Shown one piece after another: positions 4,155-16,073 of a stretch of 16,073 nt of DNA. The position numbers and the translations under genes are program-made. The DNA lies in the IMG/VR virus record IMGVR_UViG_2923307698_000005; one strand, written 5' to 3'. Numbering within the stretch: the first letter of the stretch is position 1; the number at the start of each line of letters is the position of its first letter. The stretch comes from a virus (taxonomy: Duplodnaviria; Heunggongvirae; Uroviricota; Caudoviricetes). Under the pieces are notes generated by a model that saw only the letters and a list, made by a program, of their open reading frames with translations, made no database searches and had not been told where the DNA came from.

Positions 4155-4494
4155 GCTCGTCCTCTTCTTCTGTTTCCGGTGGATTTTTACGGCGGCTTAT
4201 CGGGTCAAAACCGAGCAAGGAGGCCATTTTTATCATCACTCTTTCCGCGTCGGATTTCGCGCTTAATGCGGGGTTTCTGCTCTCTCCGCCCTGACTGTTA
4301 ACAATGCTGAACCCGCGCGCCGCAAGGTCTGCGACGGCTTTCCGGTATATCGAGTAATTGACGCAATACAGTTCCAGATTGCTCCAGTCGGCGGGAGTCA
4401 GGTCACCCCGTTCCGCAAGCTGCCGCGATTTTTCCCGCCACTGCTTCACGGCGATATCATCCAGGTAGGCGGGGGCTTTCGGTGGTCTTGCCAT
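4138..4494 (-). CDS. Terminase small subunit, P27-like (118 aa)
   Basis: ATG at 4494. Sits directly upstream of and overlapping terL. Translation resembles the P27-family small terminase (DLTPADWSNLELYCVNYSIY) with an acidic C-terminal tail. Confidence 0.8.
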   Translation of the reverse strand: MARPPKAPAYLDDIAVKQWREKSRQLAERGDLTPADWSNLELYCVNYSIYRKAVADLAARGFSIVNSQGGESRNPALSAKSDAERVMIKMASLLGFDPISRRKNPPETEEEDELDRLE

Positions 4495-9406: not shown

Positions 9407-9817
9407 TCAGAACGGAATATCATCACCGTAAGGGTCATCGCCTCCCGCTGGTGGCTGATTACCCTGTGTGCCTGTGGTCTTGCGTCGGCTCCCACCAGGA
9501 CGTGCCGCACGGGCACTGATTACGCTGTCTGCAATAACCTGATAACCCTGCCGCGTTTCCCCGTTCTGTCCGGTCCACTGGCTGACCTGCATCGTGCCGG
9601 ATACGCTGGCAACGTCGCCTTTTTGATGTTTAGCCAGGAAGTCGGCCTGCTTACCAAATGCGATGACCGATAGCCATAACGTCGCCTGTCCATCCTGTGC
9701 CTGGCTGCATGGCAGCGATACCGCCATACGCGCCAGCGTCATCGGTGTACCCTTGCTGGTCTGTTTTACCTGCGGGTCGTCCACCAGCCGCCAGTAAGCT
9801 GCAATTTGTGCTGTCAT
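9407..9817 (-). CDS. Single-stranded DNA-binding protein (136 aa)
   Basis: OB-fold-like core (WLSVIAFGKQADFLAKHQKGDVASVSGTMQVSQWTGQNGETRQGYQV), a glycine/proline/glutamine-rich linker, and a C-terminal DDIPF tail as in bacterial SSB. GAGGTGG ribosome-binding site. Confidence 0.75.
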   Translation of the reverse strand: MTAQIAAYWRLVDDPQVKQTSKGTPMTLARMAVSLPCSQAQDGQATLWLSVIAFGKQADFLAKHQKGDVASVSGTMQVSQWTGQNGETRQGYQVIADSVISARAARPGGSRRKTTGTQGNQPPAGGDDPYGDDIPF

Positions 9818-9826
9818 ATTGCCACC

Positions 9827-10132
9827 TCAGTGAAGCGATCCGGCGTTGTTCTTTTTCATCTCTTCCATCATTTTTTCAGTGAGCATTACGCACTGAAAAC
9901 CCATGTTTTTGATGTCTACGGGCTTCATGCCTTTATCAGTGGATATCACAGGCAGAATATCCTGATACACATCGCGGTCAGGGTAACTAAGCACACAAAG
10001 CGCCCATGATGCCACGGGTGAGGATCCTTCGTCTGTTTCAACCCACCAGCCTGGTGTAGCTGCGCTTATTTGCTGAATCGTGATCCGTCCGTTGTGCTTG
10101 TAAAGTTTTTCACCAAATTTTGGTTCGCTCAT
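9827..10132 (-). CDS. Hypothetical protein (101 aa)
   Basis: ATG with GGAG upstream; ATGA overlap with the upstream gene's stop. No family recognised. Confidence 0.5.
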   Translation of the reverse strand: MSEPKFGEKLYKHNGRITIQQISAATPGWWVETDEGSSPVASWALCVLSYPDRDVYQDILPVISTDKGMKPVDIKNMGFQCVMLTEKMMEEMKKNNAGSLH

Positions 10133-10380
10133 GATTCCAACTCTCCGGTTTTAACGTTGATGGTTGTTACCTGTTCCGCTTCGGCAATCTCCCGTTCTGT
10201 CAGCGTGGCAAAGTTTGCCGCCGCCGTGGTCATGAATGCGCTTATCAGGTCGGGATGTTCCTTCGCGTATCCTTCCCGCGTGTGGCGGTCTATCGTTCTG
10301 ATTGCCACCTTTAAGGTGTGCTCAGTCATGTCTAACGCTTTATATTTTGGCTCTGTTCTGTCTCTGCGTTTTTGGGTCAT
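10129..10380 (-). CDS. Hypothetical protein (83 aa from the ATG at 10380)
   Basis: The track ORF extends to a GTG at 10410 that lies inside the iteron array; the ATG at 10380 is preferred. No family recognised. Confidence 0.45.
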   Translation of the reverse strand: MTQKRRDRTEPKYKALDMTEHTLKVAIRTIDRHTREGYAKEHPDLISAFMTTAAANFATLTEREIAEAEQVTTINVKTGELES

Positions 10381-12973: not shown

Positions 12974-13175
12974 AAAGCATCCCCTGAATATTCGTGTTAA
13001 TCATTCCGGCACGTTTTGTGATTTCCTGTAATGATTCCCTTGTGGCGACAATTGCTTCATCTGGTAAGTGGTAATTACACACCACGCGACCTTTATCCAC
13101 ATTGACCAGTAGCTGCCCTGTGAATTTCTCACGAAACTGAATGCGGTTAAGGTCAGTAAGTGACAGATTAATCAT
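12963..13175 (-). CDS. Hypothetical protein (70 aa from the ATG at 13175)
   Basis: AGGAGG six nt upstream of the ATG at 13175; the start overlaps the upstream stop (ATGATTAA). The track's longer ORF to 13217 has no ribosome-binding site. Confidence 0.45.
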   Translation of the reverse strand: MINLSLTDLNRIQFREKFTGQLLVNVDKGRVVCNYHLPDEAIVATRESLQEITKRAGMINTNIQGMLYAQ

Positions 13176-13365
13176 GGCGCACCTCCTGACGAATACGGGC
13201 GGCAAATACAGCAACACAACCGGACGGGCAACGGTTACGCGCTTCGCGTTCCGTCCAGGCGGTTACGTGGATGATTTGAGATTCTCCGGCACTCAGTGCC
13301 AGAAAACGCCACACAAAGGCCGTTTGTGTGTGTACAAGGTGTGGTATATGATTTACGGCAACCAT
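13168..13365 (-). CDS. Hypothetical protein (65 aa from the ATG at 13365), first gene of the minus-strand early operon
   Basis: AGGAG five nt upstream of the ATG at 13365. The track's extension to 13467 would run through operator palindromes and a hairpin. Confidence 0.4.
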   Translation of the reverse strand: MVAVNHIPHLVHTQTAFVWRFLALSAGESQIIHVTAWTEREARNRCPSGCVAVFAARIRQEVRHD

Positions 13366-13445
13366 AACGGCTCCTAGTTTACGTTGTTGGTTAGAAGCCC
13401 CGTTACTGCTCCTACAGTGCGGGGCTTTGCTTTTTGTGTTGATTG

Positions 13446-13491
13446 TGTGTAATGTGTCATTACACATAAATACATTACATGAGGTGTAATT
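13446..13491. promoter_or_regulatory. Paired operator-like inverted repeats in the divergent control region: TGTGTAATG-TGT-CATTACACA (13446-13466) and CATTACA-N5-GTGTAAT (13473-13491)
   Basis: Read directly. Four copies of the TGTAATG/CATTACA half-site between the minus-strand early operon and the plus-strand Arc-like gene, overlapping the Arc-like gene's ribosome-binding site. Confidence 0.45.
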
Positions 13492-13494
13492 AAC

Positions 13495-13674
13495 GTGTCA
13501 ATACACAAAAACGAAAGGCGTGGTAATCCTCCGTTCCAGTTCCGTTTAGATCCTGACTTACGGGAAAAGATGGAAAAGGCACAACAACAGGACGGCGATG
13601 ATTCTCTTGCTGCCTGGATAAAGCGAATAATCCGCAAAGAATTACAGCAACGCGGCATAGAACCCAAAGGATAA
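13495..13674 (+). CDS. Arc-family ribbon-helix-helix DNA-binding protein (59 aa, GTG start)
   Basis: Not in the ORF track (under 60 aa). GTG at 13495 with GAGG ten nt upstream. Translation VSIHKNERRGNPPFQFRLDPDLREKMEKAQQQDGDDSLAAWIKRIIRKELQQRGIEPKG matches the Arc-type pattern: a PPxFxLRL beta-strand followed by two helices. Confidence 0.6.
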   Translation: MSIHKNERRGNPPFQFRLDPDLREKMEKAQQQDGDDSLAAWIKRIIRKELQQRGIEPKG

Positions 13675-13731
13675 AAACTATCAGCGCCGTGGTGTGAGGA
13701 ACTACGGCGCATTTCTTTACAGGAGTAGACA

Positions 13732-13917
13732 ATGAACAACGAAGAATTACGGGAAATCGCATTATCCATACTTGAAAGACAGGTAGAAAAAAAATTAAGA
13801 GAAATGGATGAAATGCCTGACCATGAACAGGAAGCAAGGCCAAAAAGATTTGCCCTTGAGGATTTTCTTAAAAATTGCCCAAGAAAGATGAGATCGTGGC
13901 GTTGTTGTCCGCCCTGA
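13732..13917 (+). CDS. Hypothetical small protein (61 aa), cotranscribed with the Arc-like gene
   Basis: ATG with AGGAG six nt upstream; charged, helical-looking translation; followed by an intrinsic terminator. Confidence 0.5.
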   Translation: MNNEELREIALSILERQVEKKLREMDEMPDHEQEARPKRFALEDFLKNCPRKMRSWRCCPP

Positions 13918-13994
13918 TGACAGATTTGCCAACCAGCCCAAAATGTGGCATCGTTGTCGATGCATAGTGTAATCAACATGTATATCATATTTTT

Positions 13995-14021
13995 GCGACC
14001 ATCATAGGTCGCATTTTTTTT
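13995..14021 (+). terminator. Rho-independent terminator of the plus-strand Arc-like operon
   Basis: Stem GCGACC/GGTCGC with loop ATCATA, followed by ATTTTTTTT. Confidence 0.6.
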
Positions 14022-14074
14022 GCCTGTAATCCGGCAATTGTGGCGCTTCTTCACACAGTTGATATAATTCCAAT

Positions 14075-14145
14075 GCTCATATTTATTTTTTGTGCAGCAG
14101 GTTAATCGTTCACAAAGGCGCTCAGGTAACTGGGCGCTTTTTGTT
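14075..14145 (+). ncRNA. Candidate small RNA, about 70 nt, with its own promoter and terminator
   Basis: Extended -10 promoter TGaTATAAT at 14060-14068, predicted start near 14075, and a strong intrinsic terminator at 14118-14145 (stem GCGCTCAG/CTGGGCGC with one G-U pair, loop GTAA, then TTTTTGTT). No plausible ORF inside. Confidence 0.3.
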
Positions 14146-14291
14146 ATGCCTGAAAAACCCCAATTTTGTTGTTTTTCAGTTTCACCAGGGCGAACGAATC
14201 CCCGCCCACGTTCTGGCGTATATTCAATCTTCATGGTTATAGCTCTGTGTTCAGATGATTGATGTGTGGCGGCTGTGTGCCGCCAGCGTGA

Positions 14292-14480
14292 TTAATGAAC
14301 TGCCTTGCAGCTATCCTTCCAGGCCAGAACCTCGGATAAAGACCAGCCAACGGAACGACCGCCAAGTTTACGACGTGATGGGAATTGTCCGGCCTTTTCC
14401 AGGCGGTAGCGACACGTACGGCTAAGGCCGGTTAGTTTTTTGCATTCTTTTTCACGTATAAACCGATCAGTGCTTAACAC
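14292..14480 (-). CDS. alpA: AlpA-family transcriptional regulator / excisionase-like protein (62 aa, GTG start)
   Basis: Translation LTGLSRTCRYRLEKAGQFPSRRKLGGRSVGWSLSEVLAW matches the AlpA/Xis-type helix-turn-helix pattern. The ORF has no internal ATG; the GTG at 14480 is preceded by AGGGGG. Lies immediately downstream of the integrase gene. Confidence 0.8.
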   Translation of the reverse strand: MLSTDRFIREKECKKLTGLSRTCRYRLEKAGQFPSRRKLGGRSVGWSLSEVLAWKDSCKAVH

Positions 14481-14750
14481 TATTGCCCCCTTTCGTTTCT
14501 TAAAGAGTCATCAGGTGTCTTATTGTGTCGTATTGTTCCCGCTAGAGTGATGAATGGCAAATACTGAGGATGTATGATTTACAGAAAATGAAACAGTAAG
14601 AATAAAATCTTTTAAATTCATGTTAATACAAAGGCATAAAATATTGTTCCATGCCTTTTTTCTCGCTCTTTAAAGAGTGATTCGCTAGTGTATAAAAACC
14701 AGTAACACATTAAAAATCAGCCACTTATAAATCCGTACGCTTTTTCGCCT

Positions 14751-14800
14751 CTTGTTCGTAGTTGTTCCACATTGTTGCTCATTGTTGCACGTTGTATCTG
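14751..14800 (-). repeat. Site C: four to five 10-bp-phased (C/G)AACAA repeats on the minus strand (gtgCAACAAt gagCAACAAt gtgGAACAAc tacGAACAAg)
   Basis: Read directly. The minus-strand string GTGGAACAACtACGAACAA matches site B (GTGGAACAACcACGAACAA) at 18 of 19 positions. Lies 44-93 bp downstream of the integrase stop. Confidence 0.4.
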
Positions 14801-14843
14801 TTCGCATATCCAGTATGCGCATACTGAAAAAACACGAAAAAAA

Positions 14844-16073
14844 TTATTTTCTTCTGGCTACTGGTAGTGCGGTTACGTTTTCATGTGTTCCCGCCAGTAT
14901 CCCTAACCGCTCCATCCACATATCCAGCGCATTGCGTTTAGCATCCAGATAACGGGAATGATTATAAACTCGCTGCATTCCTGGCATCTGGTGGCCTGTA
15001 AGCTGCTCCACGACGTGAGGATCCACGCCTAAATCGTTCAGCATCGTTGTAAAGGTGCGCCGGATGTCATGTAGTGACCAGTGAGGGTGATTTAGCCTCC
15101 TGTGCGCTAATCTGCCGTACTGCGACACGCTTGTTTCCTGTTTCACTTCCCCCAGCAATAAGCCCGTGTGCCTGTTCTGCTCCACCAGCTGCGTGACGAA
15201 CGGCAGTATTGCTTCCGGTATGGGCCGGAATATGGCTACCTTCGTTTTGCTGTGCTCCTTCGGAACAGTCCAGAGCATTTCGGTAAAATCCCACTCGCCG
15301 ATCTCCGATAACCTAAGTTCGACCGTCCGGCATCCGAACACAATCAGGAGGCGGATTAGCGCGATGTAGTAGGGGGAGAATATTTTTTTGTCCAGTGCCT
15401 GCAATAATTCGCCAAGTTCTTTGTTGCTTAAGACACGCTCGCTTATATCCGGTTTTTTCCCAACGTCCGCCACACTCATATCATCAAGAACGTTGCTGAT
15501 TGCATAGCGCCGCTTCCGGCAGAACTTAAGCGCCTGCTTGCATGTCTGTAGCAGGAACCCGGCGGAAACAGGGGCTTGCTTTGCCACCCGATCAAAACAG
15601 GCCAGCCAGTGCCGTAGCTCGCATTTATCCAGCGGCATAGGGCCAATGTGCTGTATTACGTGATTATTTAGCCGCTTTTTCAGTGGGTCATAATCCACAC
15701 GGTTTTCCTTTGCGTACGACTCAAGCCAGTAGGTGAGCGCATCACCAACCGTTACCGGCTTTAACGCTTCCTGTACGGTGTAATTAAGCTCATGACGTGG
15801 ATTTTTCCCCTCTGCCAGCCATGCGCGACACTGGGCGGCTTTTTCCCTGGCTGATTTCAGGCTCAGATCAGGATAATTTCCCAGCTTAATGCGTTCCGGT
15901 GGTGCCCCCCTTCCCGTTCCGGCCCTGTAAGTGAAATACCAGGTTAAAAGGCCACTGGTTGAATGCCTGACGCTCAGGTTTCCACCGTCATTAAGAAAGG
16001 CTGTTTTTTGGGCGGGTGTGCCGTTGATTTTCCTCAGCTGTGTATCGCTCAGTTTGTTAAGTGCTCTGCTCAT
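14844..16073 (-). CDS. Tyrosine site-specific integrase, P4-like (409 aa)
   Basis: Catalytic-domain motifs near the C-terminus (HDIRRTF, GHQMPGMQRVYNHSRY) and an N-terminal DNA-binding region. The ATG is the reverse complement of the last three bases of the window. Confidence 0.93.
   Translation of the reverse strand: MSRALNKLSDTQLRKINGTPAQKTAFLNDGGNLSVRHSTSGLLTWYFTYRAGTGRGAPPERIKLGNYPDLSLKSAREKAAQCRAWLAEGKNPRHELNYTVQEALKPVTVGDALTYWLESYAKENRVDYDPLKKRLNNHVIQHIGPMPLDKCELRHWLACFDRVAKQAPVSAGFLLQTCKQALKFCRKRRYAISNVLDDMSVADVGKKPDISERVLSNKELGELLQALDKKIFSPYYIALIRLLIVFGCRTVELRLSEIGEWDFTEMLWTVPKEHSKTKVAIFRPIPEAILPFVTQLVEQNRHTGLLLGEVKQETSVSQYGRLAHRRLNHPHWSLHDIRRTFTTMLNDLGVDPHVVEQLTGHQMPGMQRVYNHSRYLDAKRNALDMWMERLGILAGTHENVTALPVARRK

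What the first reader, a model, noticed from the sequence alone, without database searches (positions are those of the whole stretch)
13366..14021. Divergent control region with four operator half-sites and an oppositely oriented Arc-like gene pair
Almost every element gene is on the minus strand. The exceptions are a 59-aa Arc-type ribbon-helix-helix protein (GTG start, missed by the ORF track) and a 61-aa partner, transcribed on the plus strand and ended by a clean terminator. Between this pair and the first gene of the early operon lie two inverted-repeat operators built from the same half-site (TGTGTAATG/CATTACACA), overlapping the Arc-like gene's ribosome-binding site. This resembles a repressor and operator switch controlling the early operon. 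PICIs of Gram-negative bacteria are usually described as being activated through AlpA rather than held by a dedicated repressor, so a repressor-based switch would be notable. The alternative is that the pair is an RHH-antitoxin and small-toxin addiction module.
Basis: partly seen in the sequence, partly recalled or inferred. Interest (0 to 1): 0.65.

Follow-up and report, generated by a model that had tools for sequence, protein, structure and literature searches.

The report
Arc-like repressor switch in PICI satellites
A small Arc/Mnt-type DNA-binding protein gene, its own palindromic binding sites and a likely antisense RNA sit on top of the promoter of the early (replication) operon of this E. 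coli phage satellite, and the same module is present but undescribed in the two laboratory prototype Gram-negative PICIs, so it is a strong candidate for the "missing" repressor of these elements.

Summary
The window is an E. coli capsid-forming PICI. ORF 13495-13674 (+, GTG) is a real, widely conserved 59-aa Arc/Mnt-like ribbon-helix-helix protein.

It lies head-to-head with the first early gene, an Icd-like gene at 13168-13365 (-). Comparison of 41-49 related loci from many genera gives four results:
- A minus-strand promoter (TTGACA over RHH codons 1-3, TAnnnT 17-18 bp away) is conserved in 40-41 of 41 loci.
- A palindrome, ATGTGTCATTACACAT (13452-13467), recurs over the start codon. It is replaced by different repeats wherever the RHH beta-strand differs.
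- A plus-strand promoter, stem-loop and terminator would make a ~78-nt RNA antisense to the Icd-like ribosome-binding site.
- A long minus-strand reading frame stays open through the whole region, as with P4 eta/kil.

The same module occurs in EcCICFT073 and EcCIEDL933. The 61-aa "partner" belongs to an Escherichia-only family and is not a conserved partner, so the toxin-antitoxin reading is unlikely.

Most likely this is an immunity-type repressor/operator plus antisense-RNA switch, which AlpA-driven read-through may bypass. No binding or expression has been tested. Interest is moderate to high.

The parts
13168..13365 (-). First early gene, a 65-aa Icd-like protein. Its ribosome-binding site AGGAG is at 13371-13375.
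   Evidence: NCBIfam phage_ICD_like E=6e-18. PGAP annotation of the 100% identical E110019 locus. PHROG hits.
13347..13352 (+). -10 hexamer TATGAT of the candidate antisense promoter, lying inside codons 5-7 of the Icd-like gene.
   Evidence: A TAnnnT hexamer lies 40-42 nt upstream of the terminator stem in 35 of 41 loci, although the N-terminal codons of the first early gene differ. EcCICFT073 has TGgTATGAT at this position.
13359..13436 (+). Candidate ~78-nt cis-antisense RNA. Stem-loop 1 (13360-13392) carries the anti-Shine-Dalgarno CUCCU in its loop. It is followed by the terminator stem 13394-13428 and a U-tract. The RNA is complementary to the start codon and ribosome-binding site of the Icd-like gene.
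   Evidence: MFE -30.5 kcal/mol, z=-4.1. 11 of 14 terminator pairs covary, with many G.U pairs on the + strand only. For the whole structure 89.7% of cells are paired against 82.0% in shuffles, and 17 pairs change on both sides. The 5' end is inferred from the -10 hexamer and was not mapped.
13427..13455 (+). Candidate promoter of the RHH gene: -35 TTGCTT (13427-32), 17 bp spacer, -10 TAATGT (13450-55). The inferred start is near 13462.
   Evidence: A TTGnnn/TAnnnT pair with the -10 ending 35-39 nt before the start codon recurs in allele classes A, A2, B and C. Consensus match only.
13452..13467 (.). Operator O1, ATGTGTCATTACACAT. It overlaps the RHH -10 and both inferred transcription starts.
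   Evidence: Nearly invariant non-coding block across 31 loci from Escherichia to Gilliamella and Frischella. It is the only exact match in the window.
13472..13501 (-). Early-operon promoter: -35 TTGACA (13501-13496, over RHH codons 1-3), 18 bp spacer, -10 TAATGT (13477-13472). The inferred start is near 13465.
   Evidence: TTGACA is present in 40 of 41 loci and TAnnnT at 17-18 bp in 41 of 41, across all allele classes.
13493..13508 (.). Operator-like copy O2, ACGTGTCAATACACAA. It overlaps the GTG start codon and the -35 of the early promoter.
   Evidence: Direct repeat of O1 at 41 bp spacing, 86% identical (family D3). Two mismatches to the O1 consensus. Partly confounded by coding.
13495..13674 (+). 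59-aa Arc/Mnt-like ribbon-helix-helix protein with a GTG start. PGAP names close relatives 'YlcI/YnfO family protein'.
   Evidence: 117 homologue clusters. Conserved synteny in 58 loci. PHROG Arc-like repressor E=2.5e-6. AF2 helices 20-33 and 38-52; Foldseek hits almost all RHH, none significant. pN/pS 0.11 in this frame.
13684..13710 (+). GC-rich hairpin between the two plus-strand ORFs, terminator-like with a weak T-run. It lies inside a short segment (13668-13747) shared by otherwise different elements.
13732..13917 (+). 61-aa ORF, a divergent member of an Escherichia/Shigella-restricted small-protein family. Function unknown.
   Evidence: AF2 pTM 0.34. No Pfam, NCBIfam, PADLOC or PHROG hit for this member.
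13994..14021 (+). Intrinsic terminator (7-bp stem, T8) that ends plus-strand transcription before alpA.
13374..14234 (-). Long minus-strand ORF of 286 codons. The stop-to-stop frame runs 13374-14294, in frame with the alpA stop codon. It contains the RHH gene, the operators and the 61-aa ORF in antisense.
   Evidence: This frame is open for a median of 861 nt in 49 loci, against 84 and 120 nt for the other two minus frames. PGAP annotates it as a 247-aa protein in EcCIEDL933. Substitutions show no third-position excess. No family hit.
14292..14480 (-). alpA, the published activator of Gram-negative PICIs. It lies upstream of the long ORF on the same strand.
   Evidence: Pfam Phage_AlpA E=6e-17. 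Literature.

Best explanation
The region is the maintenance (immunity-type) control module of a Gram-negative phage-inducible chromosomal island.

Step 1: repressor. The 59-aa Arc/Mnt-like RHH protein is made from a promoter whose -10 lies in a palindromic operator, O1 at 13452-13467. It most likely binds O1 and a second copy, O2, over its own start codon. O1 covers the inferred start sites of two face-to-face promoters. O2 covers the -35 (TTGACA) of the early-operon promoter. Binding would therefore shut off the Icd-like/replication operon and autoregulate the repressor.

Step 2: antisense RNA. A ~78-nt cis-antisense RNA (about 13359-13436) presents an anti-Shine-Dalgarno loop. It would pair with the ribosome-binding site and start codon of the Icd-like gene. 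It would thereby block translation of any leaky early transcript. In phages P1 and P4, blocking translation of the first gene exposes the transcript to termination.

Step 3: induction. Helper phage raises AlpA. Transcription from the alpA promoter would then run through the long open minus-strand frame into the early genes. This bypasses the repressed internal promoter, and convergent transcription would interfere with RHH expression.

Shown by sequence comparison: the gene, fold class, promoters, operator-allele co-variation, RNA structure and open frame. Inferred: binding, repression, RNA expression and the bypass.
For: The gene is real and syntenic.
- There are 117 homologue clusters.
- In 58 loci from Enterobacterales and Orbales the order is int, alpA, a variable slot, RHH (opposite strand), then Icd-like/DUF4222/RepA.
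- pN/pS is 0.11 in the RHH frame and 0.25 in the antisense frame.

The fold class is RHH.
- PHROG Arc-like repressor, E=2.5e-6.
- In-register hhalign to Mnt (E=8e-4) and Arc.
- The AF2 model shows two helices, and its Foldseek hits are almost all RHH proteins, though all have E above 1.

The promoters are conserved.
- TTGACA is found in 40 of 41 loci, with TAnnnT at 17-18 bp in 41 of 41.
- The RHH promoter candidate keeps its position across allele classes.

The operators track the protein.
- The O1 core is nearly invariant in class A.
- Alleles with a different N-terminal beta-strand carry different repeated palindromes at equivalent positions. Examples are TTGTAATTACAA x2, GGTGACCAC x2, AGGTGTGGCCCAC x2, TGTGCGCACA x3 and GTGTTGAACAC x3.

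The antisense RNA is supported.

The open frame is supported. The P4 eta/kil precedent is described in PMC10111431.

AlpA is required and sufficient for induction, and no repressor is known (PMC6092414; cf-PICI preprint).

The module is present in EcCICFT073 and EcCIEDL933.
Against: - No experiment of any kind supports binding, repression or existence of the RNA.
- Promoters are consensus matches. The -10 hexamers are weak (TAATGT, 3 of 6) and the early-promoter spacer is 18 bp.
- O2 and the -35 lie in coding sequence, so part of their conservation could be coding.
- Foldseek E-values are all above 1, hhalign probabilities are 12-25%, and the NCBIfam YlcI/YnfO hit is below its cut-off (20 bits against 30).
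- The AF2 monomer does not form the beta-strand.
- Published data show alpA is needed for induction and do not require a repressor. The RHH could have another target.
- The long frame is closed (under 250 nt) in 13 of 49 loci, so a translation-dependent bypass cannot be universal.
Confidence: 0.6

Rival explanations
1. Replication or copy-number feedback rather than quiescence. The RHH protein and the antisense RNA would act like CopG and RNAII of plasmid pMV158. They would throttle the rep-containing early operon after induction, or in a plasmid-like state, and would not hold the integrated island silent.
For: The controlled operon encodes DUF4222, a RepA-family helicase and SSB. The pairing of an RHH repressor with an antisense RNA against a translation-initiation region matches that plasmid system (my own knowledge of pMV158). 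Uncontrolled EcCICFT073 replication harms the host.
Against: The antisense RNA targets the Icd-like gene, not the rep gene itself. The repressor gene is followed by a variable 'moron-like' slot, as expected of genes expressed in the quiescent state. The biochemistry is the same as in the main explanation and only the timing differs.
Confidence: 0.15
2. The RHH protein regulates only itself and the downstream accessory slot, or it targets helper-phage DNA (interference or sensing). Its overlap with the early promoter would then be incidental.
For: The slot between the RHH gene and alpA varies from 0.3 to 2.4 kb and carries different small ORFs. These include a lipoprotein-like peptide in four loci. 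PICIs are known to interfere with their helpers.
Against: The early-promoter -35 is superimposed on RHH codons 1-3 in 40 of 41 loci. Operators flank both inferred starts in every allele class. Such fixed geometry is hard to explain without cross-regulation. The RHH family is almost absent from true phage genomes, with only 4 tblastn hits.
Confidence: 0.15
3. Type II toxin-antitoxin addiction module, with the RHH protein as antitoxin and the 61-aa product as a small toxin.
For: The gene order, RHH first and a small ORF second, resembles RHH-antitoxin operons. There is a weak NCBIfam VapB-antitoxin hit (E=0.012). RHH antitoxins appear among the Foldseek hits. A related small ORF follows different RHH alleles in E. 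coli PICIs.
Against: - The 61-aa family is confined to Escherichia and Shigella.
- No conserved plus-strand partner exists in other genera.
- No toxin or defence family matches the ORF.
- The genes are 57 nt apart with a hairpin between them, and they recombine independently.
- The RHH protein ends 7 residues after helix B, so it has no toxin-binding tail.
- The AF2 model of the 61-aa product has no compact fold.
Confidence: 0.06
4. The long minus-strand ORF is the real gene, and the 59-aa ORF is only its antisense shadow.
For: The minus frame is open in most loci. PGAP annotates it in EcCIEDL933 and as a pseudogene in O145 strains. The two frames share wobble positions.
Against: Purifying selection is stronger in the RHH frame. 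The RHH ORF has a ribosome-binding site, a conserved start and a recognisable RHH profile and fold. The long ORF's product is Cys/Ser/Arg/Leu-rich with no family hit. Where it does not overlap the RHH gene, substitutions show no third-position excess.
Confidence: 0.04

Closest known systems
Phage P22 immI region: Arc and Mnt RHH repressors, Pant/Pmnt promoters and sar antisense RNA
   Same: Both have small Arc/Mnt-type RHH repressors with palindromic operators placed within closely spaced opposing promoters. Both add a cis-antisense RNA against a translation-initiation region. The 59-aa protein aligns in register with Arc and Mnt and matches the PHROG Arc-like repressor family.
   Different: The target here is a satellite's Icd-like/replication operon, not an antirepressor. 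Only one RHH gene is present in most elements. Sequence identity to Arc and Mnt is low (20-29%). The P22 details rest on my own knowledge.
Satellite phage P4 immunity region: vis (alpA homologue), eta, PLE, CI RNA and kil
   Same: Both have an alpA-type gene followed by a long ORF that contains an internal early promoter. In most relatives that ORF ends in frame with a ~65-aa first early gene. Both use an RNA-based block of that gene. P4 eta translation lets upstream-promoter transcripts read through (PMC10111431).
   Different: No C4/CI or IsrK RNA is detectable here. The RNA is a cis-antisense transcript from the opposite strand, and a protein repressor gene is embedded antisense in the long ORF. 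The Icd-like protein gave only one phage-collection hit, not P4. In this window the long ORF stops 8 nt before the Icd-like ATG rather than being in frame.
Phage P1 immI: c4 antisense RNA, icd and ant
   Same: In both, an Icd-type small first gene has translation controlled by an RNA, and this gates expression of the downstream genes.
   Different: P1 c4 is encoded on the same strand and processed from the same transcript. No RHH repressor is involved. P1 details are my own knowledge.
Plasmid pMV158: CopG (RHH) plus antisense RNAII
   Same: Both show dual negative control of a replication operon, by a ~45-60-aa RHH repressor at the promoter and by an antisense RNA over a translation-initiation region. 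CopG is among the Foldseek hits.
   Different: The pMV158 copG gene is co-transcribed with rep. Here the RHH gene is divergent and antisense to a long ORF. The element is an integrated satellite induced through AlpA.
SaPI Stl / Gram-positive PICI Rpr master repressors
   Same: Both are a divergently transcribed repressor gene next to the island's excision/replication operon. That arrangement is the defining regulatory layout of Gram-positive PICIs.
   Different: Stl and Rpr are larger helix-turn-helix proteins that helper-phage proteins inactivate by binding. The RHH protein here has no obvious sensor domain, and induction is known to go through AlpA.

Membership tests
Arc/MetJ (ribbon-helix-helix) DNA-binding superfamily | Significant profile match to an RHH family | tested here: met
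   PHROG phrog_228 'Arc-like repressor' E=2.5e-6, residues 6-57. There are weaker hits to NCBIfam YlcI_YnfO_N (20 bits, cut-off 30) and to VapB. No Pfam hit.
Arc/MetJ (ribbon-helix-helix) DNA-binding superfamily | Beta-strand, helix A, helix B topology, with a G-x-S/T/N turn before helix B | tested here: inconclusive
   The AF2 monomer gives helices 20-33 and 38-52 (pLDDT about 90) and an extended N-terminus of low confidence. The strand would form only in the dimer. D33-G34-D35 are invariant and S37 nearly invariant before helix B. Foldseek hits are almost all RHH proteins, but all have E above 1.
Arc/MetJ (ribbon-helix-helix) DNA-binding superfamily | Dimer binds palindromic or tandem operator sites through the N-terminal strand | not testable with these tools
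   Indirect support only. Alleles that differ in the N-terminal strand (PPFQFRL, KQIALRV, KQIAFRV, QYQIRLA and others) carry different repeated palindromes at the same positions.
Type II toxin-antitoxin module with RHH antitoxin | Conserved cognate toxin gene immediately downstream | tested here: not met
   The 61-aa family is restricted to Escherichia and Shigella. No conserved plus-strand partner is found in 47 loci of other genera. The modules recombine independently.
Type II toxin-antitoxin module with RHH antitoxin | Partner belongs to a known toxin family, and the antitoxin has a C-terminal toxin-binding extension | tested here: not met
   The 61-aa ORF has no Pfam, NCBIfam, PADLOC or PHROG hit. 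The RHH protein ends 7 residues after helix B.
P4/P1-type RNA immunity (Rfam C4, IsrK) | Match to the C4 or IsrK covariance models upstream of the Icd/Kil-like gene | tested here: not met
   No Rfam hit at gathering score in the whole window, and no C4 or IsrK hit at E up to 10 in 13000-14900.
P4 eta/kil-type nested ORF organisation | A long ORF that starts upstream of the internal early promoter and ends with (or abuts) the small first early gene | tested here: met
   The stop-free minus frame has a median length of 861 nt in 49 loci, and in about 30 of them it runs in frame into the Icd-like gene. In this window it ends 8 nt before the Icd-like ATG. Homology to P4 eta was not established.
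Gram-negative PICI / capsid-forming PICI | int, alpA and replication genes, plus (for cf-PICI) capsid, protease, portal, connectors, HNH and terminase, at a PICI attachment site | tested here: met
   Annotation of E. coli E110019, whose 13366-14030 segment is 100% identical to the window, shows the element between phoQ and roxA. Pfam AlpA and DUF4222 hits. The site and layout match EcCIEDL933 and EcCICFT073.

The most novel reading that the evidence does not exclude
Gram-negative PICIs, including the prototypes EcCICFT073 and EcCIEDL933, carry an undescribed heteroimmune system. It consists of an Arc-like RHH repressor in at least eight operator specificities and a structured cis-antisense RNA against the Icd-like gene. 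Both are embedded antisense in a P4 eta-like ORF. AlpA would induce the island not by removing the repressor but by driving translated read-through transcription across it. This would explain why no 'global repressor' was found, and it would define immunity groups among PICIs.
Probability: 0.35. Interest if true: 0.8.

Novelty: new variant of a known kind. Interest (0 to 1): 0.66.

Why it matters
The field describes Gram-negative PICIs as switched on by AlpA. [quoted passage not shown]

A conserved repressor/operator module would make that question directly testable, because it sits in elements that already have genetic systems (EcCICFT073 and EcCIEDL933). The candidate antisense RNA adds a second testable layer.

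Four consequences would follow:
- It would predict immunity or incompatibility groups among co-resident islands.
- It would link PICI regulation mechanistically to P4 and P1 immunity.
- It would correct genome annotations that place a long hypothetical protein over the region.
- It would explain how these islands, which spread virulence and defence genes, stay silent.

Part of the region matches 978 of 5,426 complete E. coli genomes.

Tried and rejected
- **Rfam scans** of the window at gathering score, and of 13000-14900 at E up to 10, found no C4, IsrK or other credible family. The few weak hits are generic terminator hairpins.
- **Pfam** gave nothing for either small ORF or for the long ORF. 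**PADLOC** gave nothing.
- **A profile search against PDB sequences** gave only chance-level hits, such as NsrR at E=0.23.
- **The first homologue search for the 61-aa ORF** found only 2 clusters. I first took the ORF for a spurious or shadow ORF. Comparison with EcCICFT073, EcCIEDL933 and others then showed a real but Escherichia-restricted family.
- **The AF2 model of the 61-aa ORF** was too weak (pTM 0.34) to justify a fold search.
- **The first attempt to fetch loci** with a broad alignment failed for lack of a conserved stretch. A narrower alignment worked.
- **A strict search for terminators after the RHH gene** in relatives found them in only 14 of 47 loci, so I make no claim of a conserved terminator there.
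- **RNAalifold** did not predict stem-loop 1 of the antisense RNA by itself. The stem-loop was supported only when I tested it explicitly.
- **Forti et al. 1999** on P4 eta/kil could not be read. P4 details come from PMC10111431 and from my own knowledge.
- **The idea that the hairpin at 13394-13428 acts in the minus-strand leader** is disfavoured. Its wobble pairs are G.U on the plus strand and would be A.C mismatches on the minus strand.
Full report
**Context**

The window matches E. coli chromosomes. Bases 13366-14030 are 100% identical to E. coli E110019 and to one other strain. In E110019 the element lies between phoQ and roxA. It encodes integrase, AlpA, Icd-like proteins, DUF4222, a RepA-family helicase, SSB and PerC. 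It also encodes a full head and packaging set: major capsid, prohead protease, portal, head closure, connector, HNH and both terminase subunits. It is therefore a capsid-forming PICI of the EcCIEDL933 type (preprint 10.1101/2022.09.08.507074). In the window int is at 14844-16073 (-) and alpA at 14292-14480 (-; Pfam Phage_AlpA, E=6e-17). The first early gene is a 65-aa Icd-like gene at 13168-13365 (-).

**Check of the observation**

Both plus-strand ORFs exist: 13495-13674 with a GTG start (59 aa) and 13732-13917 (61 aa). The stem-plus-T8 terminator at 13994-14021 is found by the scan. TGTGTAATG-TGT-CATTACACA (13445-13465) is a perfect palindrome. ATTACA (13474-79) and TGTAAT (13485-90) form a second inverted repeat over the GAGG ribosome-binding site. 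Four TGTAAT/ATTACA hexamers fall within 43 bp. The whole window holds 14 on both strands, against 7.7 expected. The cluster is not chance.

**The 59-aa ORF is a real Arc/Mnt-like gene**

- It has 117 homologue clusters in Enterobacterales, Orbales and Pasteurellaceae, mostly 59 aa and 75-97% identical.
- PGAP names close relatives 'YlcI/YnfO family protein'. The window protein itself scores below that model's cut-off (20 bits against 30), and Pfam has no hit.
- It matches PHROG phrog_228 'Arc-like repressor' at E=2.5e-6.
- hhalign places PPFQFRLD on the DNA-reading strand of Mnt (PHFNFRMP) and Arc (PQFNLRWP), and DGDDS on their G-R-S turn.
- AF2 predicts helices 20-33 and 38-52 at pLDDT about 90, with an unstructured N-terminus, as expected for an RHH monomer.
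- The Foldseek PDB hits are almost all RHH proteins (NikR, pCXC100 ParB, TacA, CopA, VapB, Arc, ParG, CopG, PutA, AmrZ). All have E above 1 because the protein is so small.
- pN/pS over 18 sequences is 0.11 in this frame and 0.25 in the overlapping antisense frame.
- The family is almost absent from true phage genomes. There were 4 tblastn hits; the best is a 15-kb record and two others are 2-3-kb records.

**Synteny**

In 58 loci fetched from one genome per species, the RHH gene always lies opposite to a leftward operon. Where identifiable, that operon starts with an Icd-like gene and continues with DUF4222 and RepA or primase. AlpA and integrase lie 0.3-2.4 kb beyond the RHH gene on the other side.

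**Promoters inferred from comparison**

On the minus strand, TTGACA overlaps RHH codons 1-3 (xTG TCA A..) in 40 of 41 loci. A TAnnnT hexamer follows at 17-18 bp in 41 of 41 loci, across allele classes whose intervening sequence differs. About 5% per locus would be expected by chance. Ser has six codons but TCA is kept, so the constraint acts on the DNA. In the window this gives -35 at 13501-13496, -10 TAATGT at 13477-13472 and a start near 13465.

On the plus strand, a TTGnnn hexamer at the end of the upstream terminator is followed at 17-18 bp by a TAnnnT hexamer. That hexamer ends 35-39 nt before the start codon, and the pair recurs in classes A, A2, B and C. In the window this is TTGCTT 13427-32 and TAATGT 13450-55, with a start near 13462.

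The two promoters therefore face each other with nearly coincident starts, so polymerase binding at one should exclude the other. These are consensus-plus-conservation inferences, not mapped starts.

**Operators**

In 31 class-A loci the non-coding block GTAATGTGTCAyyACACAT is nearly invariant from Escherichia to Gilliamella and Frischella. Its symmetric core is ATGTGT-N4-ACACAT (13452-13467), the only exact match in the window. A second copy, ACGTGTCAATACACAA (13493-13508), lies 41 bp away over the start codon and the early -35.

L007, L012 and L018 change both arms without keeping them complementary. Its arms coincide with the early -10 and with the RHH ribosome-binding site.

The RHH family splits into alleles. 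They share the C-terminal half (WIKRIIRKELQQRG) but differ in the N-terminal strand: PPFQFRL, QPFQLRL, KQIALRV, KQIAFRV, QYQIRLA and PPYQMRL. More distant E. coli alleles also occur. Each allele has its own repeated palindromes in the same places:

| Allele or element | Repeated motif |
|---|---|
| Class D | TTGTAATTACAA x2, one abutting the ATG |
| Class B | CAAGTGTcatACACTTG-type |
| EcCIEDL933 | GGTGACCAC x2 |
| EcCICFT073 | AGGTGTGGCCCAC x2 |
| L005 | TGTGCGCACA x3 |
| L004 | GTGTTGAACAC x3 |

This protein-site co-variation is the best available evidence that the RHH protein binds these repeats. It implies several immunity specificities. Some loci carry two RHH genes of different alleles in tandem.

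A GC-rich hairpin and T-run lie on the plus strand at 13394-13436, between the Icd-like start and the operators.
- Across 41 loci, 11 of its 14 pairs show compensatory changes.
- Wobble pairs are G.U on the plus strand (for example 14 and 8 U.G at two positions). They would be A.C mismatches on the minus strand. The hairpin is therefore a plus-strand terminator.
- A TAnnnT hexamer lies 40-42 nt upstream of the stem in 35 of 41 loci. It often carries an extended TGn. It falls inside the first codons of early genes whose N-terminal peptides differ, for example MVAVNHI, MAELQHT, MADANSN and MANRYDS. In the window it is TATGAT at 13347-52.
- The implied transcript (about 13359-13436, roughly 78 nt) is antisense to the Icd-like start codon (13363-65) and ribosome-binding site (13371-75).
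- It folds at -30.5 kcal/mol (z=-4.1) into a first stem-loop with CUCCU in the loop, followed by the terminator.
- On the alignment the full structure is 89.7% paired, against 82.0% in shuffles and 37-50% when slid. Seventeen pairs change on both sides. RNAalifold alone found only the terminator.
- The same module is present in EcCICFT073 with an extended -10, TGgTATGAT, and in EcCIEDL933.
- No Rfam family matches it, and C4 and IsrK are absent.

**A long open frame on the minus strand**

ORF 13374-14234 (-) has 286 codons. Its stop-to-stop frame begins at the alpA stop codon. It contains the 61-aa ORF, the RHH gene, the operators and the hairpin in antisense. The frame shares wobble positions with the RHH gene.

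In 49 loci this frame is stop-free for a median of 861 nt (maximum 1797). The other two minus frames manage 84 and 120 nt. In about 30 loci it runs in frame into the Icd-like gene. In the window it stops 8 nt before that gene's ATG.

PGAP annotates it as a 247-aa hypothetical protein in EcCIEDL933 and as an Icd-like pseudogene in O145 strains. Its product has an odd composition and no family hit. Where it does not overlap the RHH gene, substitutions are spread 5:6:4, 4:8:4, 5:8:3 and 4:7:2 over codon positions. The frame is thus kept open without visible protein-level constraint.

This mirrors P4, where kil is nested at the end of eta, eta spans the internal promoter and the immunity RNA, and eta translation lets upstream-promoter transcripts read through (PMC10111431; details of Forti et al. 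1999 from my own knowledge). The frame is closed in 13 of 49 loci.

**The 61-aa ORF**

A first search found almost nothing. EcCICFT073, EcCIEDL933, O145 strains and Shigella nevertheless carry a 57-67-aa ORF after their different RHH alleles. It shares the core EHESERFAPCAFALEqFLKEY, and the window ORF is a divergent member (36-40% identity, E about 1e-4).

A profile search found 70 clusters, nearly all named ones from Escherichia or Shigella. No counterpart exists in the other genera, where the slot holds other small ORFs. One is a lipoprotein-like 47-mer found in four loci.

The window ORF has no toxin, defence or Pfam hit, and the AF2 model has no compact fold. With the 57-nt gap, the intervening hairpin and independent recombination, a toxin-antitoxin pair is unlikely.

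**Literature**

Fillol-Salom et al. [quoted passage not shown] They show AlpA is an activator that is required and sufficient for EcCICFT073 induction. The cf-PICI paper shows alpA is required for EcCIEDL933. Mageeney et al. 2023 describe an integration zone, a Bro/immunity-RNA zone, a replication zone and a late zone, with 'unidirectional' genes and C4/IsrK RNAs in some PICIs. Searches for YlcI/YnfO, for ribbon-helix-helix or Arc-like together with PICI or satellite, and for antisense RNA with PICI found no description of this module. The library is incomplete, so prior description elsewhere cannot be excluded.

**Most likely mechanism**

Shown by comparison: an Arc-like protein gene, allele-specific repeats, two overlapping opposed promoters, a structured antisense transcript unit and a maintained long frame.

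Inferred:
- The RHH protein binds O1 and O2, represses the early promoter and autoregulates.
- The antisense RNA blocks Icd-like translation, and by polarity blocks the replication genes.
- AlpA-driven transcription from upstream, translated through the long frame, bypasses both controls and interferes with RHH expression.

**Verdict**

The repressor-switch reading is well supported by comparative evidence but untested. The 'pair' and toxin-antitoxin ideas are weak. The region holds two further conserved features that make it more interesting than first described.

Noticed in passing
window 13374-14234 (-); stop-to-stop 13374-14294: A 286-codon minus-strand ORF, antisense to the RHH gene, the operators and the 61-aa ORF, starts in frame with the alpA stop codon. 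The equivalent frame is open for a median of 861 nt in 49 related loci and usually runs in frame into the Icd-like gene, as with P4 eta/kil. PGAP calls it a 247-aa protein in EcCIEDL933. Its sequence shows no protein-level constraint.
   Followed up: partly
window about 13347-13436 (+): A conserved -10 hexamer, an anti-Shine-Dalgarno stem-loop and an intrinsic terminator predict a ~78-nt RNA antisense to the translation start of the Icd-like gene. It matches no Rfam family.
   Followed up: yes
L004 2693-3554; L025 3769-4168; L032 3760-4159; L049 4001-4453: Some islands carry two RHH genes of different alleles in tandem. L004 also carries a second copy of the upstream terminator and control region. 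This would amount to double immunity.
   Followed up: no
L008, L012, L022 and L043, starting 4 nt after the RHH stop codon (locus position 4184): A 47-53-aa lipoprotein-like ORF (MKKIIILAAVLIVAAFLLKSC...) directly follows the RHH gene in four genera and two allele classes. It may be a cargo gene co-expressed with the repressor.
   Followed up: no
window 14107-14145 (+) and 14090-14262 (+): A second strong plus-strand terminator-like hairpin (GGCGCTCAGGTAACTGGGCGC followed by T-rich sequence) lies just downstream of alpA's 3' end. Two overlapping plus-strand ORFs here are conserved in EcCIEDL933, O145 and Shigella elements. It could be a bidirectional terminator or a small RNA.
   Followed up: no
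window 13668-13747: An 80-bp segment with a GC-rich hairpin is shared by elements whose flanking RHH alleles and downstream ORFs differ. It occurs twice in L004. It looks like a module boundary or recombination joint.
   Followed up: partly
window 13168-13365 (-): The Icd-like protein matches PHROG families annotated 'transcriptional repressor' (phrog_1743, phrog_6196). It also matches the C-terminal end (positions 127-185 of 188) of phrog_29966, consistent with long-ORF forms of the gene.
   Followed up: no
L002 (E. coli E110019), locus 9748-10319 and 12974-14380: In E. coli E110019, which matches the window closely only from about 13185 onward, PGAP marks the prohead protease as frameshifted and the RepA-family helicase as carrying an internal stop. 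The window has a 466-aa RepA ORF that looks intact.
   Followed up: no
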